A stretch of DNA of 64,000 nt, taken from an uncultured Hormoscilla sp. Lineage in GTDB: Bacteria > Cyanobacteriota > Cyanobacteriia > Cyanobacteriales > Desertifilaceae. The notes under the pieces were generated by a model. It saw nothing but the letters and a program-made list of their open reading frames with translations. It ran no database searches and was not told the origin of the DNA. Positions 7,370 to 63,592 of this stretch are shown one piece after another. The translations under genes and the position numbers were made by a program. Position 1 is the first letter of the stretch; each line of letters begins with the position of its first letter. The stretch is from assembly GCA_963921275.4 (NCBI GenBank), contig OZ001293.3, forward strand, positions 5,440,001-5,504,000. The letters are read 5' to 3'.

Positions 7370-7655
7370 TATATATATTAGGGTAGGTGAGCGGCAGGCG
7401 GAGTTTGCAGCCTGGTAACCCACCCACTGGAAAGCCCTAGTGTATGGGGTGGCGCTTGGCATGGAACATTCGGGAAGTCTAGAGGTCTAATGTAAATAGA
7501 CAAGTCCCAGGGGCCGCCGAGGGGTCAAACCCAAAGGCCTTGGGAGCATCTCACTTTTGCATTTTTGCAACAATTATCGCTAATGGCTAATTGCTAATGG
7601 CTAATGGAGAATTGTTTGATTTCACCCACTTTGCCTGCCCAACCTTTCGGAGTCT

Positions 7656-8526
7656 GTGCGATTCGTTCTAGCCTAACGTGGTCAAACACGGAACGCTAGC
7701 CCGGTTTCATTAGCCGGGAACTCTGACCGCATGGGGGTTAAATTCCTCTCCCCCCAGGTACGGGGGTGACACCGGTCCTCGGTGCTACGAAGCGACATCA
7801 TCGTGGTGCTAAGCGAGGACTCAAATGTAGGATAACTGGCAGCCTAAGCCGGTGACGCCGCTAGGAAAGATATCCAAGGTTAGAGCAGGCAAACATGTGC
7901 AAGCCTCGTTATAAGGAACCAGCGAAATAAGGCTATATGCGCTGGCCTAAAAAGGAAATGGTAGCTAGTATTAGTTTTAGACTCTGGCTAATATAGTACT
8001 CAAATAGCTCCCGGGGTATAGTGTGGACCTAAAGGTATCGCGAAATGTTGTTAGGGAACGAAGTAACCTCTCGTGTGCTGTCCATCAGGACAAGTTAGAT
8101 GTTAAGCGCAAGCCACGGGGGGAGGGATGGCCCAAGAAGCGAATGCCCGGGGTAATTCCTGGGATAACATCTACAGTAATGTAGATGATGCTGGGTAGCC
8201 AGCGCTGACGTGGGTCGGTGATACTAGGAAGCTGCTGGAATGAGTAATCCTAAAAAGCCACGGAACTAATCCGAAACGCAAGTGGAGGATAAGGTATGGA
8301 TAACTGGTAAAACTGACTTGAAAATGGTGATACTAACGGTTATCAGAACAACCACTCGCTAAACCAGGAAAGGGAAGAAAAGACAGGCGGCAAGGGCTAA
8401 CGGAAGTAATTCCTATTAAGTCTACCTATGAAAAGGGCCTAGTACCCAGTAGCCGGATGCGGTGAAAATCGCAAGTCCGGTTCCGAAAGGGAGGGTCGGG
8501 AAGCGATTCCCGGCTCGACCCCATCC
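7656..8526 (+). mobile_element. ORF-less group II intron family A, copy 1 (871 nt)
   Basis: GTGCGATTCG 5' end; D5 at 8450-8483 with AGC triad and GAAA loop; D6; EBS1 AGACTC (7979-7984) pairs with exon GAGTCT. Confidence 0.93.
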
Positions 8527-9396
8527 GTGCGATTCGTTCTAGCCTAACGTGGTCAAACACGGAACGCTAGCCCGGTTTCATTAGCCGGGAACTCTGACCG
8601 CATGGGGGTTAAATTCCCCTCCCCCCAGGTACGGGGGTGACACCGGTCCTCGGTGCTACGAAGCGACATCATCGTGGTGCTAAGCGAGGACTCAAATGTA
8701 GGATAACTGGCAGCCTAAGCCGGTGACGCCGCTAGGAAAGATATCCAAGGTTAGAGCAGGCAAACATGTGCAAGCCTCGTTATAAGGAACCAGCGAAATA
8801 AGGCTATATGCGCTGGCCTAAAAAGGAAATGGTAGCTAGTATTAGTTTTAGACTCTGGCTAATATAGTACTCAAATAGCTCCCGGGGTATAGTGTGGACC
8901 TAAAGGTATCGCGAAATGTTGTTAGGGAACGAAGTAACCTCTCGTGTGCTGTCCATCAGGACAAGTTAGATGTTAAGCGCAAGCCACGGGGGGAGGGATG
9001 GCCCAAGAAGCGAATGCCCGGGGTAATTCCTGGGATAACATCTACAGTAATGTAGATGATGCTGGGTAGCCAGCGCTGACGTGGGTCAGTGATACTAGGA
9101 AGCTGCTGGAATGAGTAATCCTAAAAAGCCACGGAACTAATCCGAAACGCAAGTGGAGGATAAGGTATGGATAACTGGTAAAACTGACTTGAAAATGGTG
9201 ATACTAACGGTTATCAGAACAACCACTCGCTAAACCAGGAAAGGGAAGAAAAGACAGGCGGCAAGGGCTAACGGAAGTAATTCCTATTAAGTCTACCTAT
9301 GAAAAGGGCCTAGTACCCAGTAGCCGGATGCGGTGAAAATCGCAAGTCCGGTTCCTCAAGGGAGGTCGGGAAGCGATTCCCGGCTCGACCCCATCC
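8527..9396 (+). mobile_element. ORF-less group II intron family A, copy 2 (870 nt)
   Basis: Near-identical to copy 1, abuts it with no spacer. Confidence 0.93.
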
Positions 9397-10268
9397 GTGC
9401 GATTCGTTCTAGCCTAACGTGGTCAAACACGGAACGCTAGCCCGGTTTCATTAGCCGGGAACTCTGACCGCATGGGGGTTAAATTCCCCTCCCCCCAGGT
9501 ACGGGGGTGACACCGGTCCTCGGTGCTACGAAGCGACATCATCGTGGTGCTAAGCGAGGACTCAAATGTAGGATAACTGGCAGCCTAAGCCGGTGACGCC
9601 GCTAGGAAAGATATCCAAGGTTAGAGCAGGCAAACATGTGCAAGCCTCGTTATAAGGAACCAGCGAAATAAGGCTATATGCGCTGGCCTAAAAAGGAAAT
9701 GGTAGCTAGTATTAGTTTTAGACTCTGGCTAATATAGTACTCAAATAGCTCCCGGGGTATAGTGTGGACCCTCAAGGTATCGCGAAATGTTGTTAGGGAA
9801 CGAAGTAACCTCTCGTGTGCTGTCCATCAGGACAAGTTAGATGTTAAGCGCAAGCCACGGGGGGAGGGATGGCCCAAGAAGCGAATGCCCGGGGTAATTC
9901 CTGGGATAACATCTACAGTAATGTAGATGATGCTGGGTAGCCAGCGCTGACGTGGGTCGGTGATACTAGGAAGCTGCTGGAATGAGTAATCCTAAAAAGC
10001 CACGGAACTAATCCGAAACGCAAGTGGAGGATAAGGTATGGATAACTGGTAAAACTGACTTGAAAATGGTGATACTAACGGTTATCAGAACAACCACTCG
10101 CTAAACCAGGAAAGGGAAGAAAAGACAGGCGGCAAGGGCTAACGGAAGTAATTCCTATTAAGTCTACCTATGAAAAGGGCCTAGTACCCAGTAGCCGGAT
10201 GCGGTGAAAATCGCAAGTCCGGTTCCTCAAGGGAGGGTCGGGAAGCGATTCCCGGCTCGACCCCATCC
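9397..10268 (+). mobile_element. ORF-less group II intron family A, copy 3 (872 nt)
   Basis: Near-identical to copy 1, abuts copy 2 with no spacer. Confidence 0.93.
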
Positions 10269-12577: not shown

Positions 12578-13165
12578 AGTCGGGGTCGAGCCTATTGTCA
12601 CCCCCCAACCTTCCCATTCGGAACCGGACTCTCTTTACCGCATCCGGCTACTGGGAAGCAGGGCATTGTCATTGCTAGGATTACTAAGGATTACTCCCAT
12701 TGTCCCTCATCTCACGAGATTTCTCCCCTTTCCTGGTTGGTAAGTGGCGCTGCCAGATAACCTTAAGTATTACCATTTTTCTTTTCTCTGTTTTACCAGT
12801 CATCCCACCTTCTAGAGGTTTCGGGGCTTCTTAGAGATACTTTTTCCCAAGATTTCCTACTTTCACCAACCCGCGTCTGCATGTTGAGGCAGTCCTCAAC
12901 TTATCCATAGGAATTACCCTAGGCATTAGCTTCTCGGGCTATCTCTCCCCTCGTGGCTTGCGCTATGCGCTGCGCGCACGCTACGCGGACGTACATCTAA
13001 CTGGTTCGGCCCCGTTGAGCCGAACTGCACACAAGAGGTTACTTCGTTCCCTGGTATCATTTCTCGATGCTTTTAAACCCCTGCTATACCCCGGGAGCTA
13101 TTCGAGTGCGATGTTGGCCAGACAATACGCAGAGATATCGAAGTAGCTATTTGGGATTTGGTCCA
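12578..13165 (-). mobile_element. 5'-truncated, degenerate ORF-less group II intron (relative of families A/B)
   Basis: Minus strand shows CCCAGTAGCCGGATGCGG D5, ...CTCGACCCCGAC(T) end, AGGGAACGAAGTAACC and AATAGCTCCCGGGGTATAG motifs; left limit of homology approximate. Confidence 0.8.
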
Positions 13166-14956: not shown

Positions 14957-15509
14957 TGCTTCTCCGGGGGGGGTTGATAGTTTCTGCGTGGGATTAATAG
15001 GTCTATCCTCCGTTACTTAACTTTATCTGTACCATAACTTTTCTCTTCGCTTCTGATTCTACCGGAAAACTTGCATAACGGGACTTTGAGATTTTCTCAG
15101 GCAAAAAACGGCTTCTTAGCTTACCGGGTGTGGGTTTTACGTCGAAGGGTATCAAATGGCAGCAAACCCGCTCCCCTGGGTCGAGGGAGACCAGGGAGAC
15201 CCCACTGTGGCTCTGTGAAAGGGTTTGATGTCATTTTACGCCTATTTTTTCTCAAAGTCCCGATAAAAATGTCTTGACGCCTTTCATTCTGACTATCTGT
15301 GCATTCCCAGATCGGTGCTGTGATCGCCAACCGCTACCACTCCCTCACCCTAAAGGGTGAGGCTAAACAAACAAAGCCCGCCTGCGCGGGCTAGATTACA
15401 TTAAAGAGATAGTCCCGATCGGGTCAAACATGGGTGGCCTGAAAACTATGCTGGGAGGCAGGAGATCGCCTATCGCCTTGAGCGAACGCCACCGATATTT
15501 TAACCTCCC

Positions 15510-20239: not shown

Positions 20240-20369
20240 TAAAAAATTCCCAAGTTGTAGGTTTGGTTTCGTGCCTCAACCCAATCGGTTGCTGGCTTTT
20301 GCTGACGATATCGATGGTGAGAGTCTGGTTTTATTAATTGTGGGGAATTCCCCGGATTTGATCTAATAG

Positions 20370-26872: not shown

Positions 26873-26944
26873 GCCGGTGTGACTCAGGGGTAGAGTAGCT
26901 GATTTGTAATCAGCCTGTCGCAGGTTCAAATCCTGTCACCGGCT
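26873..26944 (+). tRNA. trnT: tRNA-Thr(TGT)
   Basis: Acceptor GCCGGTG/CACCGGC, D stem ACTC/GAGT, anticodon arm GCTGA-TTTGTAA-TCAGC, T loop TTCAAAT; no encoded CCA. Confidence 0.9.
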
Positions 26945-32449: not shown

Positions 32450-33320
32450 GGATGGGGTCGAGCCGGGAATCGCTTCCCGACCCTCCCTTTCGGAACCGGA
32501 CTTGCGATTTTCACCGCATCCGGCTACTGGGTACTAGGCCCTTTTCATAGGTAGACTTAATAGGAATTACTTCCGTTAGCCCTTGCCGCCTGTCTTTTCT
32601 TCCCTTTCCTGGTTTAGCGAGTGGTTGTTCTGATAACCGTTAGTATCACCATTTTCAAGTCAGTTTTACCAGTTATCCATACCTTATCCGAAACGCAAGT
32701 GGAGGATTAGTTCCGTGGCTTTTTAGGATTACTCATTCCAGCAGCTTCCTAGTATCACCGACCCACGTCAGCGCTGGCTACCCAGCATCATCTACATTAC
32801 TGTAGATGTTATCCCAGGAATTACCCCGGGCATTCGCTTCTTGGGCCATCCCTCCCCCCGTGGCTTGCGCTTAACATCTAACTTGTCCTGATGGACAGCA
32901 CACGAGAGGTTACTTCGTTCCCTAACAACATTTCGCGATACCTTTAGGTCCACACTATACCCCGGGAGCTATTTGAGTACTATATTAGCCAGAGTCTAAA
33001 ACTAATACTAGCTACCATTTCCTTTTTAGGCCAGCGCATATAGCCTTATTTCGCTGGTTCCTTATAACGAGGCTTGCACATGTTTGCCTGCTCTAACCTT
33101 GGATATCTTTCCTAGCGGCGTCACCGGCTTAGGCTGCCAGTTATCCTACATTTGAGTCCTCGCTTAGCACCACGATGATGTCGCTTCGTAGCACCGAGGA
33201 CCGGTGTCACCCCCGTACCTGGGGGGAGGGGAATTTAACCCCCATGCGGTCAGAGTTCCCGGCTAATGAAACCGGGCTAGCGTTCCGTGTTTGACCACGT
33301 TAGGCTAGAACGAATCGCAC
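32450..33320 (-). mobile_element. ORF-less group II intron family A, copy 4 (871 nt), inserted in a REP palindrome
   Basis: Reverse complement of 7656-8526; flanks rejoin to TAGGTTGAGTTGAGGCACG|AAACCCAACCTAC. Confidence 0.93.
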
Positions 33321-34073: not shown

Positions 34074-36238
34074 ATTAAACTAAGCCAGTACGTCACCGTA
34101 CCGACTCGTCTTCAAAACCGGACGTGAGACTTTCACCTCATCCGGCTCCTCAGTTTCGTCATCCTTGTCATGGATACGGCCTTTGCTGCCATCCCTGGCA
34201 GATTTATAATCATGGCAGTAGTCGTGCAGCAACTGTAGGTTGGAGTACCAGTCCTTACCTCCCAGTGAGGTTGGCAGGATGTGGTCCACTTCCCATTTGT
34301 CGCCGTCCTTAAACGTTAGTCCGCAATGCTGGCACTTGCCATCCTGCCTCTTGAGCAGGTTAATCACTCTCATGCTTACGTCCGGGCTCTTTCGTAATCT
34401 CTGGCTTACTTACCACCGTCTTGAAGTAGTTGCTCCATCCCCTTATCATTGGGTTTAGTTTGACTATCAAGGCTGTCTGTGGTGCCGATTTATGGCGGCG
34501 AACTATCTGTGATAGTTGCTCTTTATGATTCCTAATGGATTTATCGCTAGGCTTGATTAGGGTCTTGAATCCTAGGGGGGTTCCGTTGCTGAGTTTGCCG
34601 CTTCTGTGTTTCCCTACTTTGTATTGTCGGATATTGAACCCTAGGAAGTCAAATCCGGGGTTTTCTCCTTCCAGTGTGTGGGATATCTGGTTTTCTCGGC
34701 TTTTAGCTCTAGTCCTATTCCCTTCAACCACTCCTCAATCACTCCTTGTGCTCGCTCAATCATTGACCGGTCATCGTGCATTACCACAAAATCATCGGCG
34801 TACCTGACTATCGTTAGTTTCTTTTCCTCTCTCTTTGTGCGGGCAAGACTCATCACTACCTTTTCCAACCCATGTAGGGCTATATTGGCTAGCAATGGTG
34901 ATATTACTCCGCCTTGAGGAGTTCCGGCTTCTGTGTCCTGCCATATTCCCTGGTCCATCACCCCGGCTTTTAGCCATGCCCGTATCTGTCTACGGATTGG
35001 TGATGTTGTATTCAATTTCTCTAGGAGCGCTGAGTGGTCAATTTTGTCGAAACATTTCGTAATATCCGCATCTAACACCCATTTTGGTTTCTTGTTGGTG
35101 CTGGTGAATATCGTTTCGATCGCATCGTGGCATCCCCTTCCTGGTCTGAATCCGTAGGAATTGGCTTCCATGTACGCTTCCCATTCGGGCTCAAGCGACT
35201 GTTTGACCAATCCCTGAAGTGCGCGGTCGTGCATCGTCGGTCTTCCTAGTGGCCGCTTTTCGTCCCTTCCTGGCTTAGGTATCCATACACGCAGTGTAGG
35301 TTTCGCCTTTGCCTTCCTGAATACTCTGAGCTGACTTACCAGTTCCAGTCGCTGCTCCATAGTCAGTGCTTTCACACCATCCACACCAGCCGCATTCTTT
35401 CCTTGGTTTTGTTGTGTTACCTGTCTCACCGCTATCATCTTCGTGGACCATGACCTATTTAGTAACCCTTGGAGCTTGCGAACTTTCCGCTTGTTGCCTT
35501 CCTGTGCCGCTCTGTAAATTCGCTTTTGTAGCTTGAAGACATGGCTGGCGCCACGCTAGCGCGATCGGCGCTCCAGCTCCTGCCAGGGCACCTCCTTCCA
35601 TTCATACTCTTGCTTTTCGGCTAAGTTCCGTGACATATTAACTACTACTCACAACTTCACAATTGACAAAACCGTGAGGGCGTCAGCTTATCCCATCCAT
35701 TACAGATAGGCGTTTGCTTCTCCACTCAATCTTTCCCAGCTATGACCTGCCAAATGAGAGCAGATGTTGCGTCTTTGGTGACTACTCCATCTATCGACCG
35801 GTGATGGAGAGTGCCTAGCTGGGTTACTTCGTTCCTACAGATGATTAATCGTAGTTTTAGATGGATTCTATATGCCGGGTTTGTTGTCAGTGCTTATTAG
35901 TCGGATTACAACCGCTAATGACCATTATCCTTTCCCTTTTGGGCCAGTGTCTCAGCCTTATTACACTGGTTGATGTTGACGACACTTATGAACCTTTGCT
36001 TGCGCTCATCATGACTACTTGCTCGACGATGACCGGTTTAGGCTACCAGTTAGAGCGCCTTTCCTTCCCGCTTTACGGATTGATGCCATCGCTACCGTTG
36101 GGAGGATGCTGTCACGAGAGCACCTGGAGGGGTGGGCTTTCACCACCATCATCTGTAAGTTGTCAGGGCTATTGAAACCCTGCTAGCGGTCCCATTTATT
36201 GACACGTGTCAAGTCATTTTACTCTAAACGAATCGCAC
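34074..36238 (-). mobile_element. Group II intron (IIB/chloroplast-like) with a disrupted RT-maturase-HNH ORF
   Basis: GTGCGATTCG start, GAGCCGGATG D5, AGTTTAAT end, EBS1 TGTAAT pairs with exon ATTGCA; YADD present. Confidence 0.93.
34080..35636 (-). pseudogene. ltrA: Intron-encoded reverse transcriptase/maturase, inactivated
   Basis: 24-bp insertion with TAG at 35544-35567, frameshift near 34690, roughly 260-bp deletion near 34405 relative to the paralogue at 38921-40699. Confidence 0.88.
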
Positions 36239-38914: not shown

Positions 38915-41304
38915 ATTAAACTAAGCCAGTCCGTCACCGGACCGACTCGTCTTCAGAACCGGACGTGAGACTTTCACCTCATCCGGCTCCTCGGCAACAT
39001 CACCCTTGTCATGGGTACGGCTGTTTTTGCTGCCATCGTTGACAGTCTTTGAGTCGTGGCAATGCTTGTGCAGTAATTGTAGGTTGTCATACCGGTCCTT
39101 ACCTCCTAATGAAAGGGGCTTGATCTGGTCAACTTCCCATTTGTCACTGTCCTTGAATGTTAGTCCGCAGTGTTGGCATTTTCCTTTTTGCTTCTTAAGT
39201 AGCGTTGCTACCCTCTTACTCAATTCGGGGTTTTTGCCTAACCTTGTACTCCAATATGTAAGGTTCCCGTCATATGGGCTTGCTATTCCTTTCACTTTTA
39301 CGTGTCTGACTATCTCAGTTTCGGAGTGTTTGCGCAGCGTTATCTCTCCCTCTCCTGTCTTACATTGGAATCGCCATTTACCATCCTGGTTTACGGACCA
39401 GTACTTACGGGCTATCCAATGACTTGACTTATTAGGGTGCCTCCTTTTGGCCCATTGCCATAGGATGTTCCATAGGTAGTTGTCCATGTCGGCGTAAGTT
39501 TCCTTACTTACCACTGTCCTGAAGTAGTTGGACCATCCCCGTATTGCCGGGTTTAGCTTGCTAATCAGGGCTGCTTGTCGTGCCGTTTTATGGCTGGTTA
39601 CGATTTGCGCTAACCGTTCTTTATGCTTCCCTATGGATTTCTTGCTGGGCTTGATTAAGGTTTTGAAGCCTAGGGGGGTTCCGTTCGACTGTTTGCCGCA
39701 TTTGTGTTTTCCCACTTTGTACTGTCGGATGTTGAATCCTAGGAAGTCAAATCCTGGTTCCTCACCTTCCAGTGTGTGGGCTATTCTTGTCTTTTCGGCT
39801 TTTAGCTCTAGTCCCACTCCCTTTAACCACTCAGCTATTGTCGTTTGCGCCCTTTCTATTACATCCTTGTCGTCGTGCATTACAACAAAGTCGTCGGCAT
39901 ATCTGACTACTGTCAGTTTTTCCTTCTCTCTTTTTGTTTTGGTAAGTTTCATTACTGTTTCCTCAAGTCCATGTAGGGCTATGTTGGCCAGTAATGGTGA
40001 TATGACTCCCCCTTGGGGTGTCCCTGCCTCAGTTGTATGCCATGCACCGTTGTCCATCACCCCGGCTTTTAACCATGCCCGTATCTGTTTACGGATTGGT
40101 GATGTCGTATTCAGTTTTCTTAGTAGCGCTGAGTGGTCAATTTTATCGAAGCATTTGGCAATGTCAGCATCTAGTACCCATTTGGGTTTTTGTTTGATGC
40201 TGTTGAATATTGCCGCAATTGCGTCGTGGCATCCCCTTCCCGGTCGGAAGCCGTAGGAGTTCCCTTCCATATGTGCCTCCCATTTGGGTTCGAGCGCAAT
40301 CTTCAGGAGCCCTTGTGTTGCGCGGTCGTACATCGTTGGTATGCCTAATGGGCGTTTTTCATCCCTTCCAGGCTTTGGTATCCATACACGTCGTGTAGGT
40401 TTGGCCTTGTCTGAGATTTCGATTTGTCCTACCAGTTCTAGACGTTGTTCTGGGGTTAATGCTTTCACACCATCCACTCCTGCCGTCTTCTTGCCCTGGT
40501 TATCTTGCGTTACCTGTCGTACCGCTAGCGTTTTGGCAGCCCGGGATTTAACCAGTAACCTTTGGAGCCTGCGAACCATCCGCTCATTACCTTCCAGTGC
40601 CGCTCTGTAAATTCGTTTTTGCAGCTTGTAGACCACCCGTTCTAGCTTCCGCCAGGGGGTGTCCTTCCATTCATTCATCGGTCTTTCGATCGTGCTCATG
40701 ACATATTCACTGCTACTTGCAACTTCACAATTGACGTTACCGTGAGGGCGTCAGCGTATCCTACCCGTTACGGTAGGTGTTTGCTTTTCCACTCAATCTC
40801 TCCCAGATATGACCTGCTTGATGGAAGCAGAGGTTGCGCCTGTGGTGGCTACTCTACCTATCGACCGGTGGTAGAGAGTGCATATCTGGTTTACTTCGTT
40901 CCTACAGATGATTGGTTGTAGTTTTAGATGGGTTCTATATGCCGGGTTTATGGTCAGTGCTTATTGGTCGGGAGACGGCCGCCAATGACCTGTATCCTTT
41001 CCCTTTTGGGCCAGCGTATAAGCCTTATTCCGCTGGTTAATGGTAACGACATCTATAAACCTTCGCTTTCGCTCATCATGACTACTTGCTTGGCGATGAC
41101 CGGTTTAGGCTACCAGTTAGAGCGCCTTTCCTTCCCGCTTCATGGATTGATGCCATCGCTACCGTGGGGAGGGTGCTGTCACGAGAGCACCTGGAGGGGT
41201 GGGCTTTCACCACCATCATCTGTAAGTTGTCAGGGCTAATAAACCCTGCCAGCGGTCCCCATTCTTGACCCGTGTCAAGTCGGTTTACGCTAAACGAATC
41301 GCAC
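38915..41304 (-). mobile_element. Full-length group II intron (IIB/chloroplast-like) with intact ORF
   Basis: GTGCGATTCG start, canonical D5/D6, AGTTTAAT end; EBS1 CGTCTC versus exon AAGACG (5 of 6 pairs). Confidence 0.95.
38921..40699 (-). CDS. ltrA: Group II intron reverse transcriptase/maturase with HNH endonuclease domain
   Basis: RPLGIP, GTPQGG, RYADD, GFDFLGF, IRGWSNYF, CQHC...NLQLLHKHCH; the first HNH His reads Q (EVDQI). Confidence 0.95.
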   Translation of the reverse strand: MSTIERPMNEWKDTPWRKLERVVYKLQKRIYRAALEGNERMVRRLQRLLVKSRAAKTLAVRQVTQDNQGKKTAGVDGVKALTPEQRLELVGQIEISDKAKPTRRVWIPKPGRDEKRPLGIPTMYDRATQGLLKIALEPKWEAHMEGNSYGFRPGRGCHDAIAAIFNSIKQKPKWVLDADIAKCFDKIDHSALLRKLNTTSPIRKQIRAWLKAGVMDNGAWHTTEAGTPQGGVISPLLANIALHGLEETVMKLTKTKREKEKLTVVRYADDFVVMHDDKDVIERAQTTIAEWLKGVGLELKAEKTRIAHTLEGEEPGFDFLGFNIRQYKVGKHKCGKQSNGTPLGFKTLIKPSKKSIGKHKERLAQIVTSHKTARQAALISKLNPAIRGWSNYFRTVVSKETYADMDNYLWNILWQWAKRRHPNKSSHWIARKYWSVNQDGKWRFQCKTGEGEITLRKHSETEIVRHVKVKGIASPYDGNLTYWSTRLGKNPELSKRVATLLKKQKGKCQHCGLTFKDSDKWEVDQIKPLSLGGKDRYDNLQLLHKHCHDSKTVNDGSKNSRTHDKGDVAEEPDEVKVSRPVLKTSRSGDGLA

Positions 41305-46605: not shown

Positions 46606-47476
46606 GTGCGATTCGTTCTAGCCTAACGTGGTCAAACACGGAACGCTAGCCCGGTTTCATTAGCCGGGAACTCTGACCGCATGGGGGTTAAATTCCCCTC
46701 CCCCCAGGTACGGGGGTGATACCGGTCCTCGGTGCTACGAAGCGACATCATCGTGGTGCTAAGCGAGGACTCAAATGTAGGATAACTGGCAGCCTAAGCC
46801 GGTGACGCCGCTAGGAAAGATATCCAAGGTTAGAGCAGGCAAACATGTGCAAGCCTCGTTATAAGGAACCAGCGAAATAAGGCTATATGCGCTGGCCTAA
46901 AAAGGAAATGGTAGCTAGTATTAGTTTTAGACTCTGGCTAATATAGTACTCAAATAGCTCCCGGGGTATAGTGTGGACCTAAAGGTATCGCGAAATGTTG
47001 TTAGGGAACGAAGTAACCTCTCGTGTGCTGTCCATCAGGACAAGTTAGATGTTAAGCGCAAGCCACGGGGGGAGGGATGGCCCAAGAAGCGAATGCCCGG
47101 GGTAATTCCTGGGATAACATCTACAGTAATGTAGATGATGCTGGGTAGCCAGCGCTGACGTGGGTCGGTGATACTAGGAAGCTGCTGGAATGAGTAATCC
47201 TAAAAAGCCACGGAACTAATCCGAAACGCAAGTGGAGGATAAGGTATGGATAACTGGTAAAACTGACTTGAAAATGGTGATACTAACGGTTATCAGAACA
47301 ACCACTCGCTAAACCAGGAAAGGGAAGAAAAGACAGGCGGCAAGGGCTAACGGAAGTAATTCCTATTAAGTCTACCTATGAAAAGGGCCTAGTACCCAGT
47401 AGCCGGATGCGGTGAAAATCGCAAGTCCGGTTCCTCAAGGGAGGGTCGGGAAGCGATTCCCGGCTCGACCCCATCC
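46606..47476 (+). mobile_element. ORF-less group II intron family A, copy 5 (871 nt)
   Basis: Near-identical to 7656-8526; 5' exon GGGTCT pairs with EBS1. Confidence 0.93.
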
Positions 47477-54428: not shown

Positions 54429-55141
54429 ATGTCAACTAGTAAGCGGTGTCTGGAGCGTACCGAGTCCTTCAGGACAAGAGTACGCGGAAGACGCCGAGGT
54501 CACGCTGTTTCGCCCAGTCGGGCAAAAGGAAATGGATTTGATTCGGGAAAGTAATTATCGTAACTTTCCACCTCGATGTCTCCTGGGTGCCGTGCCGGAG
54601 GCGAGAGCACCGCAGGAGATATCGAAGTCTCCCGTTTCAGCCAATTTTTTACCCAGTAATTCAGGAATAATATGCAGTGCAGATAAGCTGTCGTGCATTT
54701 AAATTGCATAGGCAGATATTCTGAAAGCATTGCCCTCAATGGGTTTCTCCATTTTGAATTTTTAATTTTGAATTGCTTAGCGCGAGACTGGAATAGAAAA
54801 GATCCAGCTTCTGGATACGCTGGTTATGTCACCAATATTCGCATCGATGCCGAATATATCCAGAAATACCAGATCCAAACAGTAGGGAGTTCAAAGCATC
54901 AAGAATATTGGATTCCGGCAGCAGAGTTAGGAGAGTTTAACGAGGGTGCATCTCACTTTTGCGATATGGCAACAATTCTCGCTGCGCTCTGGCTAATTGA
55001 GAATTATTCGATTTCACCCGCAAGGGTCAGTTAAATTCATCGAAGTCTATTTGCAAATATGAGATGCACCCATTTAACGAAAATATTGTCGGTGCAATAG
55101 AAATAATTGCAGAATTTAAGTGCGAGCCGAGTTCAGAGTAA
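54429..55141 (+). pseudogene. Small conserved protein (often labelled ADP-ribosylation/crystallin J1) broken by four repeat insertions
   Basis: Reconstructed TLFRPVGQKE...FPPRLP.QPIFYPV...ARDWN...GYVT...HQEYWIPA. Confidence 0.7.
54944..55071. mobile_element. MITE sharing ends with the ISKra4-like element
   Basis: GGGTGCATCTCA...TGAGATGCACCC; flanked by (G/A)TTTAACGA duplication. Confidence 0.85.
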
Positions 55142-61777: not shown

Positions 61778-63592
61778 TTACTCCTTTACCACACGCATTG
61801 AATGTGGGTGGGAGAAGTCTAAGTACTCACCATTTTGCGCTTTCACATGTTTTAGATCTTCGTTAGGGACGGTGCCTGTAAAGGTAGCAAGACGGTTGTA
61901 GGATAAATTATCGTAATCAGACAGCATGACCCCCGTACCTTCAGATGCTTGCACATAGATTTGTTTATCGTAGATAAACCCTGGAAGTGAGTATGCTGAA
62001 CGCTTACCTACCGGAAGACAGTACTGGTTTTTCACGTCTAAGAGAACAATACAGCCTAGTGGCTCGCTTGATTCAACTACTCGCATCGAATGCGGATGAG
62101 AGAAATCCAGAACCTCACCATTTTGCGCTTTCACCTCTTTTAGCTCATCGTTAGAGACGTAGCCTGTAAAGGTGGCAAGACGGTTGTAAGACAAATTGTC
62201 ATAATCAGACAGCATGACCCCCACACCTTGAGGAGCGTTCACATAGACGGGTTTATTGTAAATAAACTCTGGAAGTGAGTATCCTGAACGTTTACCTACC
62301 GGAAGACAGTACTCATCTTGCGTGTCTAAGCTAACAATACAGCCTAGTGGCTCGCTTGATTCAACTACTCGCATCGAATGCGGATGGGAGAAATCCAGAA
62401 CCTCACCATTTTGCGCTTTCACTTCTTTTAGCTCATCGTTAGAGACGTAGCCTGTAAAGGTGGCAAGACGGTTGTAAGACAAATTGTCATAATCAGACAG
62501 CATGACCCCCACACCTTGAGGAGCGTTCACATAGACGGGTTTATCGTAAATAAACTCTGGAAGTGAGTATGGTGAACGTTCGCCTACCGGAAGACAATAC
62601 TCTTGTTTTGTCTCGACATTCACTATACAACCTTGCGCTTCTTCCACCGCGTGGGCAGGAGTCATAAAGAACAGGTGCGACTCGTTCTAGCCTAATGTAG
62701 TAAATACAGAACGCTAGCCTAGGAAACTAGGAACTCTGGTGATCATGGGGGTTAAATTCCCCTCCTCCAGGTACAGGAGTGACCGCGTGAGGTGCTGCGG
62801 AGCCACATCGCCGTGGTGCTAAGCGAGGACTTAAATGTAGGATAGCTGGCAGCCTCAGCCAGCAACGCCGCGCTTGTTAGAGGCTCATGGTGAGAACAAG
62901 CGAATCTCTGTAAGTATCGTCATCTGAGACCAGCTCTAAGGCTGATTACGCTGGCCCAAAATGGAAAAGTAGTTCGCGTGTCAATGTTTTGTTTTCATTG
63001 ACAATGTGCCCTCAACAACTACCGGTATATAGTCGAGACCTAAAAGCCTCGTGAAATGATACCAGGGAACGAAGTAACCCCATGTGTGCTGTCCATATGG
63101 ACCAGTCAGATGTAAAGCGTAAGCCACGTGTGGGAAAGATGGCCCAAGAAGCAAATGCCTGGGCGGTGTCTTCCGCATGCTCTTGTCCTGAAGGACAAGA
63201 GCATGCGGAAGACGCCGGGTAATGCCTAGGATAAGCAGACATGGGTCGGTGATAGTAGGAAGTCTTAGGTAAAAGTAGCTCTAAACGTCATCAGCCCATC
63301 ATGTAAATGATGAGGAATGAATTACTGGTAAAACGGACATGATAATGGTGATACTAAAGGTTATCCGGCAGCGCCACTCACCAACCAGGAAAGGAGCCAA
63401 ATCGCATAGGACAAGGAACAACGAGAGTAATCCCTAGTAATTCTGCCAATGATAAGGACCTACTACCCAGTAGCCGTGTGCGGTGAAAGTCGCATGCACG
63501 GTTCCGAAAGGGAGGGTTGGAAAGTGATTTCCAGCTCGACCCCTAATAGTTGTAGCAATTACTGACAAACAGAAAAGCAAAATGCGCTTCAT
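61778..63592 (-). pseudogene. Secreted protein of three StcE C-terminal (X409-like) modules; signal peptide split by an antisense intron (exons 63592-63548 and 62674-61778)
   Basis: Three ~95-aa repeats GCIV...YCLPVG.RS.YSLP...LSDYDNLSYNR...NG..LDFS.P.SMRVV; joined N-terminus MKRILLFCLSVIATTLFFMTPAHA; GAGG RBS. Confidence 0.8.
62675..63547 (+). mobile_element. ORF-less group II intron family B (873 nt)
   Basis: GTGCGACTCG start, colinear with family A, D5 TAGCCGTGTGCGGTGAAAGTCGCATGCACGGTTC, end CCCCTAAT; EBS1 TTGTTT pairs with exon GAACAG. Confidence 0.9.

What the first reader, a model, noticed from the sequence alone, without database searches (positions are those of the whole stretch)
8450..8526. 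Mobile intron lineage with a non-canonical 3' end (...CCCCAUCC) and altered D5/D6
Seen: all five family A copies end CCCCATCC. Empty-site comparisons show both terminal C's belong to the insert: MITE AGTCT|ATTT (compare 55044-55052) and REP GGTTT|CGTGCC (compare 20265-20275). The putative branch A lies 9 nt from the end, in an A/GA internal loop rather than a single bulge. D5 opens with U (TAGCCG...GGTTC) in families A, B and the 12.6 kb fragment. Family B has the same spacing but ends TAAT. Established: group II introns normally end AY with the bulged A at -7 or -8, as the two ORF-bearing introns here do (AGTTTAAT). Inference: this is a distinct ORF-less sub-lineage that is still spreading, with a shifted 3' splice site or a hydrolytic/circle pathway.
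Basis: partly seen in the sequence, partly recalled or inferred. Interest (0 to 1): 0.8.

Follow-up and report, generated by a model that had tools for sequence, protein, structure and literature searches.

The report
Protein-less group II introns ending CC
This is the tail of an 871-base group II intron that encodes no protein, is present in about 140 near-identical copies in a cyanobacterial genome, and ends in CC nine bases from its predicted branch adenosine; it likely still splices and spreads as a lariat using borrowed enzymes, and both oddities have separate precedents.

Summary
Window 7656-8526 is an 871-nt ORF-less IIB2 group II intron with 139 full copies in the genome; 147 of 149 3' ends read CCCCATCC. 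The end is fixed by four tests: 31 of 31 empty sites, gamma-gamma' pairing in 25 of 25 subfamilies, EBS3 pairing with +1 in 23 of 25, and reading frames.

The novelty claim is only partly right. The -9 adenosine with the A.G loop also occurs in RT-encoding introns ending CGACCCCUAAY (D5-D6 pattern in 38 of 401 cyanobacterial genomes), and curated IIB2 entries already have lengths implying this end. A non-G D5 base occurs elsewhere. RmInt1 ends CC, and published IIB2 introns end UC. What looks unreported is the combination: a genus-wide ORF-less swarm with an 8-nt spacer and CC/CU ends (268 of 302), with no cognate RT found.

Precise junctions favour lariat retrohoming over hydrolysis or circles (inferred; no RNA data). 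This scan reported the same feature on other windows of this genome. Verdict: a new variant of a known kind.

The parts
7656..8526 (+). Family A ORF-less IIB2 group II intron, copy 1 of a head-to-tail triplet (871 nt, GUGCGAUUCG...CCCCAUCC)
7642..7655 (+). 5' exon target: IBS2a (A7642), IBS2 (7643-7647, 4 of 5 pairs), IBS1 GAGTCT (7650-7655, 6 of 6 pairs)
7910..7916 (+). EBS2a (U7910) and stem-less EBS2 UAAGG (7912-7916)
   Evidence: covariation with exon positions -14 and -9..-13 across subfamilies
7978..7984 (+). delta (7978, assigned by position) and EBS1 AGACUC in the Id3 hairpin loop
   Evidence: EBS1 against -1..-6; helix at intron positions 315-321/331-337
8019..8019 (+). EBS3 (U); pairs with the first base after CC
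   Evidence: 23 of 25 Watson-Crick with +1; +1 is A in 74% of 117 unique sites
8125..8127 (+). J2/3: gamma (G8125) followed by the catalytic GA
   Evidence: 25 of 25 Watson-Crick with the last intron base, 8 compensatory
8218..8445 (+). Domain 4 without an RT ORF (basal helix at intron positions 565-572/784-790)
   Evidence: covarying helices; no ORF of 100 aa or more
8450..8483 (+). Domain 5: U.C first opposition, intact AGC triad, AA bulge, GAAA loop
8487..8526 (+). Domain 6 and tail: GGG/CCCC basal helix, A.G opposition, predicted branch A8518, 8-nt spacer CCCCAUCC, gamma' C8526
8527..9396 (+). Family A copy 2 (1-nt deletion in D6)
9397..10268 (+). Family A copy 3; 3' exon begins ATTTAC
32450..33320 (-). 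Family A copy 4, in a REP-like repeat
46606..47476 (+). Family A copy 5
62675..63547 (+). Family B member of the same lineage (873 nt, ends CCCCUAAU)
12578..13122 (-). 5'-truncated fragment of the lineage, ends CCCCGACU, damaged D5
38915..41304 (-). RT/En-encoding IIB2 intron (ORF 38921-40699, 592 aa; ends AGUUUAAU, 7-nt spacer); candidate trans helper
34074..36238 (-). Second RT-type IIB2 intron with a broken ORF, ends AGUUUAAU

Best explanation
The element is an ORF-less subgroup IIB2 group II intron whose 3' boundary lies after CC, eight bases past a conserved adenosine that is predicted to be the branch point; it likely splices as a lariat and likely retrohomes with reverse transcriptases borrowed from unrelated IIB2 introns in the same genome. 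SHOWN: the boundaries; the targeting rules (EBS1/IBS1, EBS2/IBS2, EBS2a, EBS3/IBS3); gamma-gamma' pairing with the last C; recent precise spread to more than 110 distinct sites; no RT-encoding member of the lineage in G000. INFERRED: descent by ORF loss from the cyanobacterial IIB2 group ending CGACCCCUAAY, followed by drift of the last four bases (UAAY to GACU, GACC, UACC, AGCC, AUCC) because only the last base (gamma') and +1 (EBS3) are read by base pairing. Also inferred: branching at A(-9), and help from resident RTs. HYPOTHESIS for tolerating the extra base: three G's face four C's, so the D6 basal helix can slip between a lone-A bulge and an A-C two-base bulge, as in the strand shift described for other introns.
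For: Boundary: 31 of 31 empty sites at gap 0. gamma pairs with the last base in 25 of 25 subfamilies, and EBS3 with +1 in 23 of 25. gamma also follows the last base in 13 of 13 UAAU/UAAC introns of other genera and in 4 of 4 congener elements. With this boundary 25 of 119 family A sites have 240 nt or more of open frame on both sides, against 3 and 2 if one or two C's are given to the exon. Targeting: IBS1 has at least 5 of 6 pairs at 101 of 113 sites, against 1.7% at random positions. Lariat: both junctions are exact, and linear-intron retrotransposition is described as about 1000-fold less efficient and mostly imprecise (PMC4748821, passages). Splicing: eno (UAAU end), zwf (GACC end) and ectD (family A, AUCC end) have no second copy by tblastn and are split in sense with stop-free exons that together cover nearly all of their NCBIfam models; prfC likewise. 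Origin: the D1-D3 tree puts the ORF-less clade (support 100) beside other 8-nt-spacer introns (90), apart from resident RT introns. Both D6 registers keep three G-C pairs in 19 of 19 sequences. Precedent for mobilisation in trans: TeI3/TeI4 (PMC2882425, passages).
Against: No RNA evidence of splicing, branch point or expression was obtained. Family A sits antisense in open frames as often as in sense (13 against 12), so selection for splicing is not evident for this family. Resident RT introns are only 52-55% identical to family A in D1-D3, much further than the closely related TeI pairs, and the genome is 96.7% complete, so a cognate RT could be missing. The basal D6 helix has only 3 Watson-Crick pairs, while 4 is reported optimal for branching (PMC4748821). 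The tree is a quick FastTree without bootstrap, two 8-nt-spacer introns (L096, L097) fall outside the group, and the RT tree needs 2 changes for that trait. D6 pair covariation cannot choose a register because the G and C runs never vary.
Confidence: 0.72

Rival explanations
1. The 3' end is right, but the intron is excised mainly by hydrolysis or as circles, because the 8-nt spacer and 3-bp basal helix disable branching.
For: 3-bp basal helices correlate with hydrolysis in IIC introns (PMC4748821). RmInt1, with a CC end, makes circles (PMC4238363). A Trichodesmium inner intron gave circles and no lariat (PMC4649490 section 7). Head-to-tail copies look like circle junctions.
Against: Exact 5' junctions at 31 of 31 testable sites, and 148 5' ends against 149 3' ends. 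The -9 A is invariant in 19 of 19 diverse introns. The tandem copies differ at a genome-wide polymorphism (positions 830-831), as separate insertions would and a rolling copy would not.
Confidence: 0.12
2. The introns branch and retrohome but ligate exons poorly (RmInt1-like), so they act as gene-disrupting retroelements in a decaying symbiont genome rather than as tolerated introns.
For: RmInt1 (CC end) has an inefficient second step (PMC4238363). Family A has 13 antisense against 12 sense insertions in long open frames. Many RT genes are interrupted antisense by family A.
Against: eno and zwf, with no second copy found, keep stop-free exons around lineage members. The GACU family and the smaller families are sense-biased (11 against 4, and 6 against 2). 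This reading is compatible with the best explanation for family A alone.
Confidence: 0.13
3. The true splice site is the canonical AU two bases upstream (A at -7), and CC is exon or target sequence carried along.
For: Rfam RF00029 aligns the end at AU, 8524.
Against: Empty alleles lack CC in 31 of 31 cases. gamma is G, pairing with C rather than U. Sister subfamilies have no AY at that place (GACU, GACC). Frames open only with the CC-inclusive boundary.
Confidence: 0.02

Closest known systems
Cyanobacterial subgroup IIB2 (CL2) group II introns: Tr.e.I7 (PMC4649490); N.sp.I4 and the Anabaena variabilis, Acaryochloris and Microcystis entries of Table S3 in PMC8643678
   Same: 5' GUGCGAUUC, extra stem-loops at the base of D1, stem-less EBS2 with EBS2a, EBS3, gamma-gamma'. 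The A. variabilis entry has the same CGA context and ends UCGACUUCAUC, and N.sp.I4 ends GGCAUC, both non-AY. Introns with the table's EBS2 strings end CGACCCCUAAU at 2616 and 2613 nt, the published lengths.
   Different: No ORF. Penultimate C in 268 of 302 lineage ends in G000. U.C at the base of D5. Copy number in the hundreds. The review PMC9294222 gives IIB2 a 7-nt spacer; this lineage has 8.
RmInt1 of Sinorhizobium meliloti (class D / IIB3)
   Same: Ends in CC, with gamma-gamma' and EBS3-IBS3 defining the 3' splice site; mobile (PMC4238363, introduction and passages).
   Different: RmInt1 encodes its own RT without En, belongs to another class and sits in one IS target. The IIB2-type D1, the 8-nt spacer and the relaxed targeting to more than 110 sites are not its features.
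ORF-less TeI3 introns of Thermosynechococcus elongatus (IIB1; PMC2882425)
   Same: ORF-less cyanobacterial introns diversified into EBS families, mobilised in trans, forming twintrons.
   Different: TeI3 are 17 copies closely related to their driver TeI4 introns. Here there are about 305 elements, and the resident RT introns are only 52-55% identical in D1-D3 with a different D6.
Bacillus introns with altered 3' splice sites (B.c.I4, +53/56 nt; B.a.I2, +4 nt alternative site), as reviewed in PMC9294222
   Same: Branch-to-3'-site spacer longer than 6-7 nt, with the site set by gamma-gamma' and EBS3.
   Different: Those carry a large insertion or an alternative site. Here a fixed 1-nt longer spacer is shared by a whole lineage.

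Membership tests
Group II intron | D5 with AGC triad, 2-nt bulge and GNRA loop; J2/3 GA | tested here: met
Group II intron | 5' GUGYG and EBS1/IBS1, EBS2/IBS2 pairing | tested here: met
Group II intron | gamma-gamma' pair with the last nucleotide | tested here: met
   25 of 25; 13 of 13 and 4 of 4 outside G000
Group II intron | Self-splicing with a 2'-5' branch at the D6 adenosine | not testable with these tools
   needs RNA or in vitro assays
Group II intron (typical consensus, not defining) | 3' end AY | tested here: not met
   CC 163, CU 105, AU 32, UC 2 of 302. RmInt1 (PMC4238363) and two curated IIB2 introns also break it, so it is treated as typical rather than defining.
Subgroup IIB2 | 5' GUGCGAUUC and extra stem-loops 5' of the D1 basal loop | tested here: met
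   criteria from PMC4649490 section 7 and PMC8643678 passages; (pairs 32-44, 47-61, 49-60)
Subgroup IIB2 | Stem-less EBS2 with EBS2a-IBS2a, EBS3-IBS3, no linker between D3 and D4 | tested here: met
   EBS2a 21 of 24 and EBS3 23 of 25; D3 closes near 561 and D4 opens near 563-565
Subgroup IIB2 (typical, not defining) | 7-nt spacer from branch A to 3' splice site (PMC9294222) | tested here: not met
   8 nt here; introns matching curated IIB2 entries also have 8 and N.sp.I4 has 6
CL2 autonomous retroelement | RT/X/D/En ORF in D4 | tested here: not met
   No ORF in D4; none of 36 long RT ORFs in G000 belongs to an intron with this D6
Non-autonomous intron mobilised in trans (TeI3-like) | Mobilisation by an RT from another intron | not testable with these tools
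   indirect only: precise recent insertions and intact resident RTs
Class D / IIB3 (RmInt1-like) | IIB3 ribozyme with class D RT | tested here: not met
   IIB2-type 5' end and D1 insertions, no RT; RmInt1 itself was not aligned

The most novel reading that the evidence does not exclude
A genus-wide swarm of ORF-less IIB2 introns has freed itself from the penultimate A and the 6/7-nt spacer rule, absorbs the extra base by slipping its GGG/CCCC branch helix (a strand shift IIB2 introns were said to lack), and is spliced and spread by non-cognate RTs only about 53% alike in ribozyme. It would be a living bacterial model of many passive introns served by a shared splicing machine, even inside core genes such as enolase.
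Probability: 0.35. Interest if true: 0.72.

Novelty: new variant of a known kind. Interest (0 to 1): 0.45.

Why it matters
Practically, rule-based or Rfam-based annotation places the 3' end 1-2 nt too early, which frameshifts the interrupted genes. Mechanistically, reviews state a fixed 6- or 7-nt branch-to-3'-site spacer and that IIB2 introns cannot strand-shift. This lineage offers about 30 natural subfamilies with an 8-nt spacer and at least seven different ends, which makes a direct test of how the 3' site is chosen without a penultimate A. For evolution, hundreds of ORF-less introns apparently served by distantly related RTs would extend the Thermosynechococcus model of a shared splicing apparatus. 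The interest is tempered because each single oddity has a precedent and nothing is yet shown at RNA level.

Tried and rejected
RNA evidence: no RNA holder was listed among 6 runs. Two layings of contig runs showed no joint that skips the whole intron; these blanks are not evidence either way.

Cognate RT: none among 117 RT-like loci and 36 long RT ORFs in G000. The one 508-bit D1-D3 hit upstream of an RT ORF was a nested ORF-less intron. In congeners, 13 of the 18 RT loci fetched from G401-G404 showed a D5-D6, all ending AGUUUAAY or AGUGUAAU; 5 showed none. Only 19 loci of more than 200 matches were fetched.

Uniqueness of the -9 spacing: a strict pattern matched 1 of 401 phylum genomes, which first suggested uniqueness. 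The looser pattern matched 38 of 401, so uniqueness was rejected.

Other checks: Rfam D1-D4 models gave only 19.1 bits against a gathering score of 36. The careful RT tree and the one-clade test did not finish; the quick tree was used. The all-against-all covariation list is noisy, and only stacked pairs were used. Plasmid searches found no full-length relative.

Literature not seen: Simon et al. 2008 and Molina-Sanchez et al. 2011 are not held; Costa et al. 2016, the Candales database and Michel's IIB2 alignments were not seen. Any of them could already show the 8-nt spacer. Paper searches for Hormoscilla + intron and for group II intron + branchpoint + 8-nt + cyanobacterial returned 0; searches returned no listing that describes this lineage. 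bioRxiv supplements were closed.

Full report
OBSERVATION. The stretch 8450-8526 is D5-D6 of an 871-nt element starting GTGCGATTCG at 7656. Rfam RF00029 matches it at 46.4 bits but stops at the AU at 8524. The window holds five copies (three head-to-tail from 7656 to 10268, one at 33320-32450 and one at 46606-47476), a 71%-identical family B (62675-63547), a fragment (13122-12578) and two RT-type introns ending AGTTTAAT. In the genome, 160 matches at 95% identity or more include 139 full copies; 147 of 149 3' ends are CCCCATCC and 2 are CCCCATTC. Of 314 D5-like hairpins opening UAGCC, 305 matched the D6 motif. Three of these belong to another class. The 268 with a detected start fall into 31 clusters ending AUCC, GACU, UAAU, GACC, GGCU, UACU or AGCU. 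Last dinucleotides of the 302 are CC 163, CU 105, AU 32 and UC 2.

THE 3' BOUNDARY. Four tests agree. (1) Flanks were searched separately. Where a paralogous empty site existed, the flanks abutted with no gap in 31 of 31 family A sites, 18 of 20 GACU-family sites, and 16 of 18 sites of smaller families. (2) In an alignment of 25 subfamily representatives (30 aligned; 5 near-duplicate derivatives and one insertion-bearing family A copy left out), one column, the purine before the J2/3 GA (window 8125), is Watson-Crick complementary to the last base in 25 of 25. (3) One D1 column (8019) pairs with the first base after the end in 23 of 25, as EBS3 should. EBS1, EBS2 and EBS2a map the same way onto exon positions -1..-6, -9..-13 and -14. 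(4) Of 119 unique family A sites, 25 have at least 240 nt of open frame on both sides with this boundary, against 3 and 2 when one or two C's are given to the exon. The CC is therefore intron.

CLASS. The 5' GUGCGAUUC, the two extra stem-loops at the base of D1, the stem-less EBS2, the EBS3 and the abutting D3/D4 are the IIB2 criteria given in PMC4649490 (section 7 read) and PMC8643678 (passages). D4 is a 228-nt folded domain without an ORF. D5 keeps the AGC triad, a 2-nt bulge and a GAAA loop; only its first pair is U.C.

HOW UNUSUAL IS EACH FEATURE? Spacer: Costa 2022 (PMC9294222, parts 1-2 of 3 read) and Monachello 2016 (PMC4748821, passages) give 6 or 7 nt, and 7 for IIB2; here it is 8. 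A looser D5-D6 pattern with CGACCCC-N4 matched 38 of 401 genomes in 14 genera. Many of the non-congener matches inspected lie behind RT/En ORFs and end UAAU or UAAC. There gamma follows the last base in 13 of 13, and REP-like insertion sites in G092 rejoin without a gap. Introns carrying the EBS2 strings of Microcystis rows in Table S3 of PMC8643678 (supplement part 1 read) measure 2616 and 2613 nt to CGACCCCUAAU, the published lengths. Two introns carrying a third string measured 2612 and 2617 against a published 2620, and one had a variant D6 and was not measured. So the 8-nt spacer appears to be inside the curated IIB2 set already, unremarked in the texts I could read. A.G loop: also present in 7-nt-spacer introns (L039, L040; A. 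variabilis). D5 first base: U in G410, A in G680, C in G405, and G in some congener members. Non-AY end: RmInt1 ends CC (PMC4238363, introduction and passages), and two published IIB2 introns end AUC at their published coordinates. Only the first matches were listed.

ORIGIN AND HELPER. In a D1-D3 FastTree of 33 sequences, the ORF-less elements of G000 and its congeners plus one ORF-less 8-nt-spacer element from another family (L100) form a clade with support 100. That clade is sister (90) to eight other 8-nt-spacer introns and apart from G000's own RT introns. Two 8-nt-spacer introns fall elsewhere, and the quick RT tree needs two changes for the trait, so a single origin is not shown. None of 36 long RT ORFs in G000 sits in an intron with this D6; those with a D6 in view end AGUUUAAY, and several are full length, including window 38921-40699. 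Their D1-D3 is 52-55% identical to family A. Mobilisation in trans is inferred from TeI3/TeI4 (PMC2882425, passages), but across a wider gap.

ACTIVITY. 61 of 121 871-nt copies equal the majority sequence and 108 differ by at most 2 nt. IBS1 has at least 5 of 6 pairs at 101 of 113 sites (1.7% at random), and +1 is A or G at 100 of 113. This reads as relaxed retrohoming. Exact junctions and equal numbers of 5' and 3' ends argue for a lariat, since linear introns are described as integrating rarely and imprecisely (PMC4748821). The triplet is best read as repeated insertion at one site: copy 1 carries the minority allele at positions 830-831 and copies 2-3 the majority allele. Lineage members split eno, zwf, prfC and ectD in sense with stop-free exons; eno, zwf and ectD have no second copy by tblastn. 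That suggests splicing, including at CC ends. Against this, family A is as often antisense as sense in long open frames (13 against 12).

D6 GEOMETRY. In 19 diverse D5-D6 sequences, GGG faces CCCC. Register a (A bulged alone beside A.G) adds an A-U pair in 14 of 19 below a mismatch; register b (A-C bulge) adds little. Both keep three invariant G-C pairs. Slipping between them would be the strand shift that PMC9294222 says IIB2 introns appear unable to make. This is a hypothesis; invariant columns cannot test it.

VERDICT. This is a new variant of IIB2: an ORF-less, genus-wide swarm with an 8-nt spacer and mostly CC/CU ends. Earlier notes of this scan on other windows of the same genome describe the same end. 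They gave me the RmInt1 lead, which I checked, and they are not independent support. Interest 0.45.

Noticed in passing
window 7656-10268: Three head-to-tail family A copies that differ at a genome-wide polymorphic site, consistent with repeated insertion at one target. Copies 2 and 3 lack their own IBS1 and could only splice after the upstream copy leaves.
   Followed up: partly
window 8485-8486 (intron positions 830-831): The D5-D6 linker is CUC in 101 of 121 copies and CGA in 20. The majority form could make a competing CCUC/GAGG hairpin, yet it is the commoner one.
   Followed up: partly
G000 C1, e.g. 1059808-1060678, 1148426-1149296 and 3090001-3090871: Family A repeatedly inserts antisense at one site inside resident RT genes, truncating its putative helpers.
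   Followed up: partly
G000 C1 near 1540346, 2265896, 6223455 and 1326651: Some subfamilies target D1 of their own lineage, and family A targets its own D4, giving nested twintrons.
   Followed up: no
L107, L109, L111, L112, L113: eno, prfC, zwf and the ectoine genes ectD and ectB are split by lineage members.
   Followed up: partly
window 32450-33320 (intron positions 618-631): Copy 4 has a block of about 10 substitutions in D4 not shared by the other window copies.
   Followed up: no
window 12578-12660: The fragment's D5 has lost part of its upper stem, so it is probably dead.
   Followed up: no
L104, L106: Two curated IIB2 introns end AUC, not AY, at their published coordinates; N.sp.I4 has a 6-nt spacer.
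   Followed up: yes
L152 (AP018284.1 near 17300), L068, L081, L082: The named plasmid record matches the D5-D6 region with no RT gene annotated nearby; about 830-930-nt ORF-less introns with the 8-nt spacer and UAAC ends occur in other cyanobacterial genera.
   Followed up: partly
window 61778-62665: An ORF with a 288-nt internal repeat lies directly upstream of the family B intron on the opposite strand.
   Followed up: no
window 15370-15393 and 26873-26944: A marginal single CRISPR-DR28 match and a tRNA.
   Followed up: no
window 42467: An isolated GTGCGATTCG followed by unrelated sequence; chance or a remnant.
   Followed up: no
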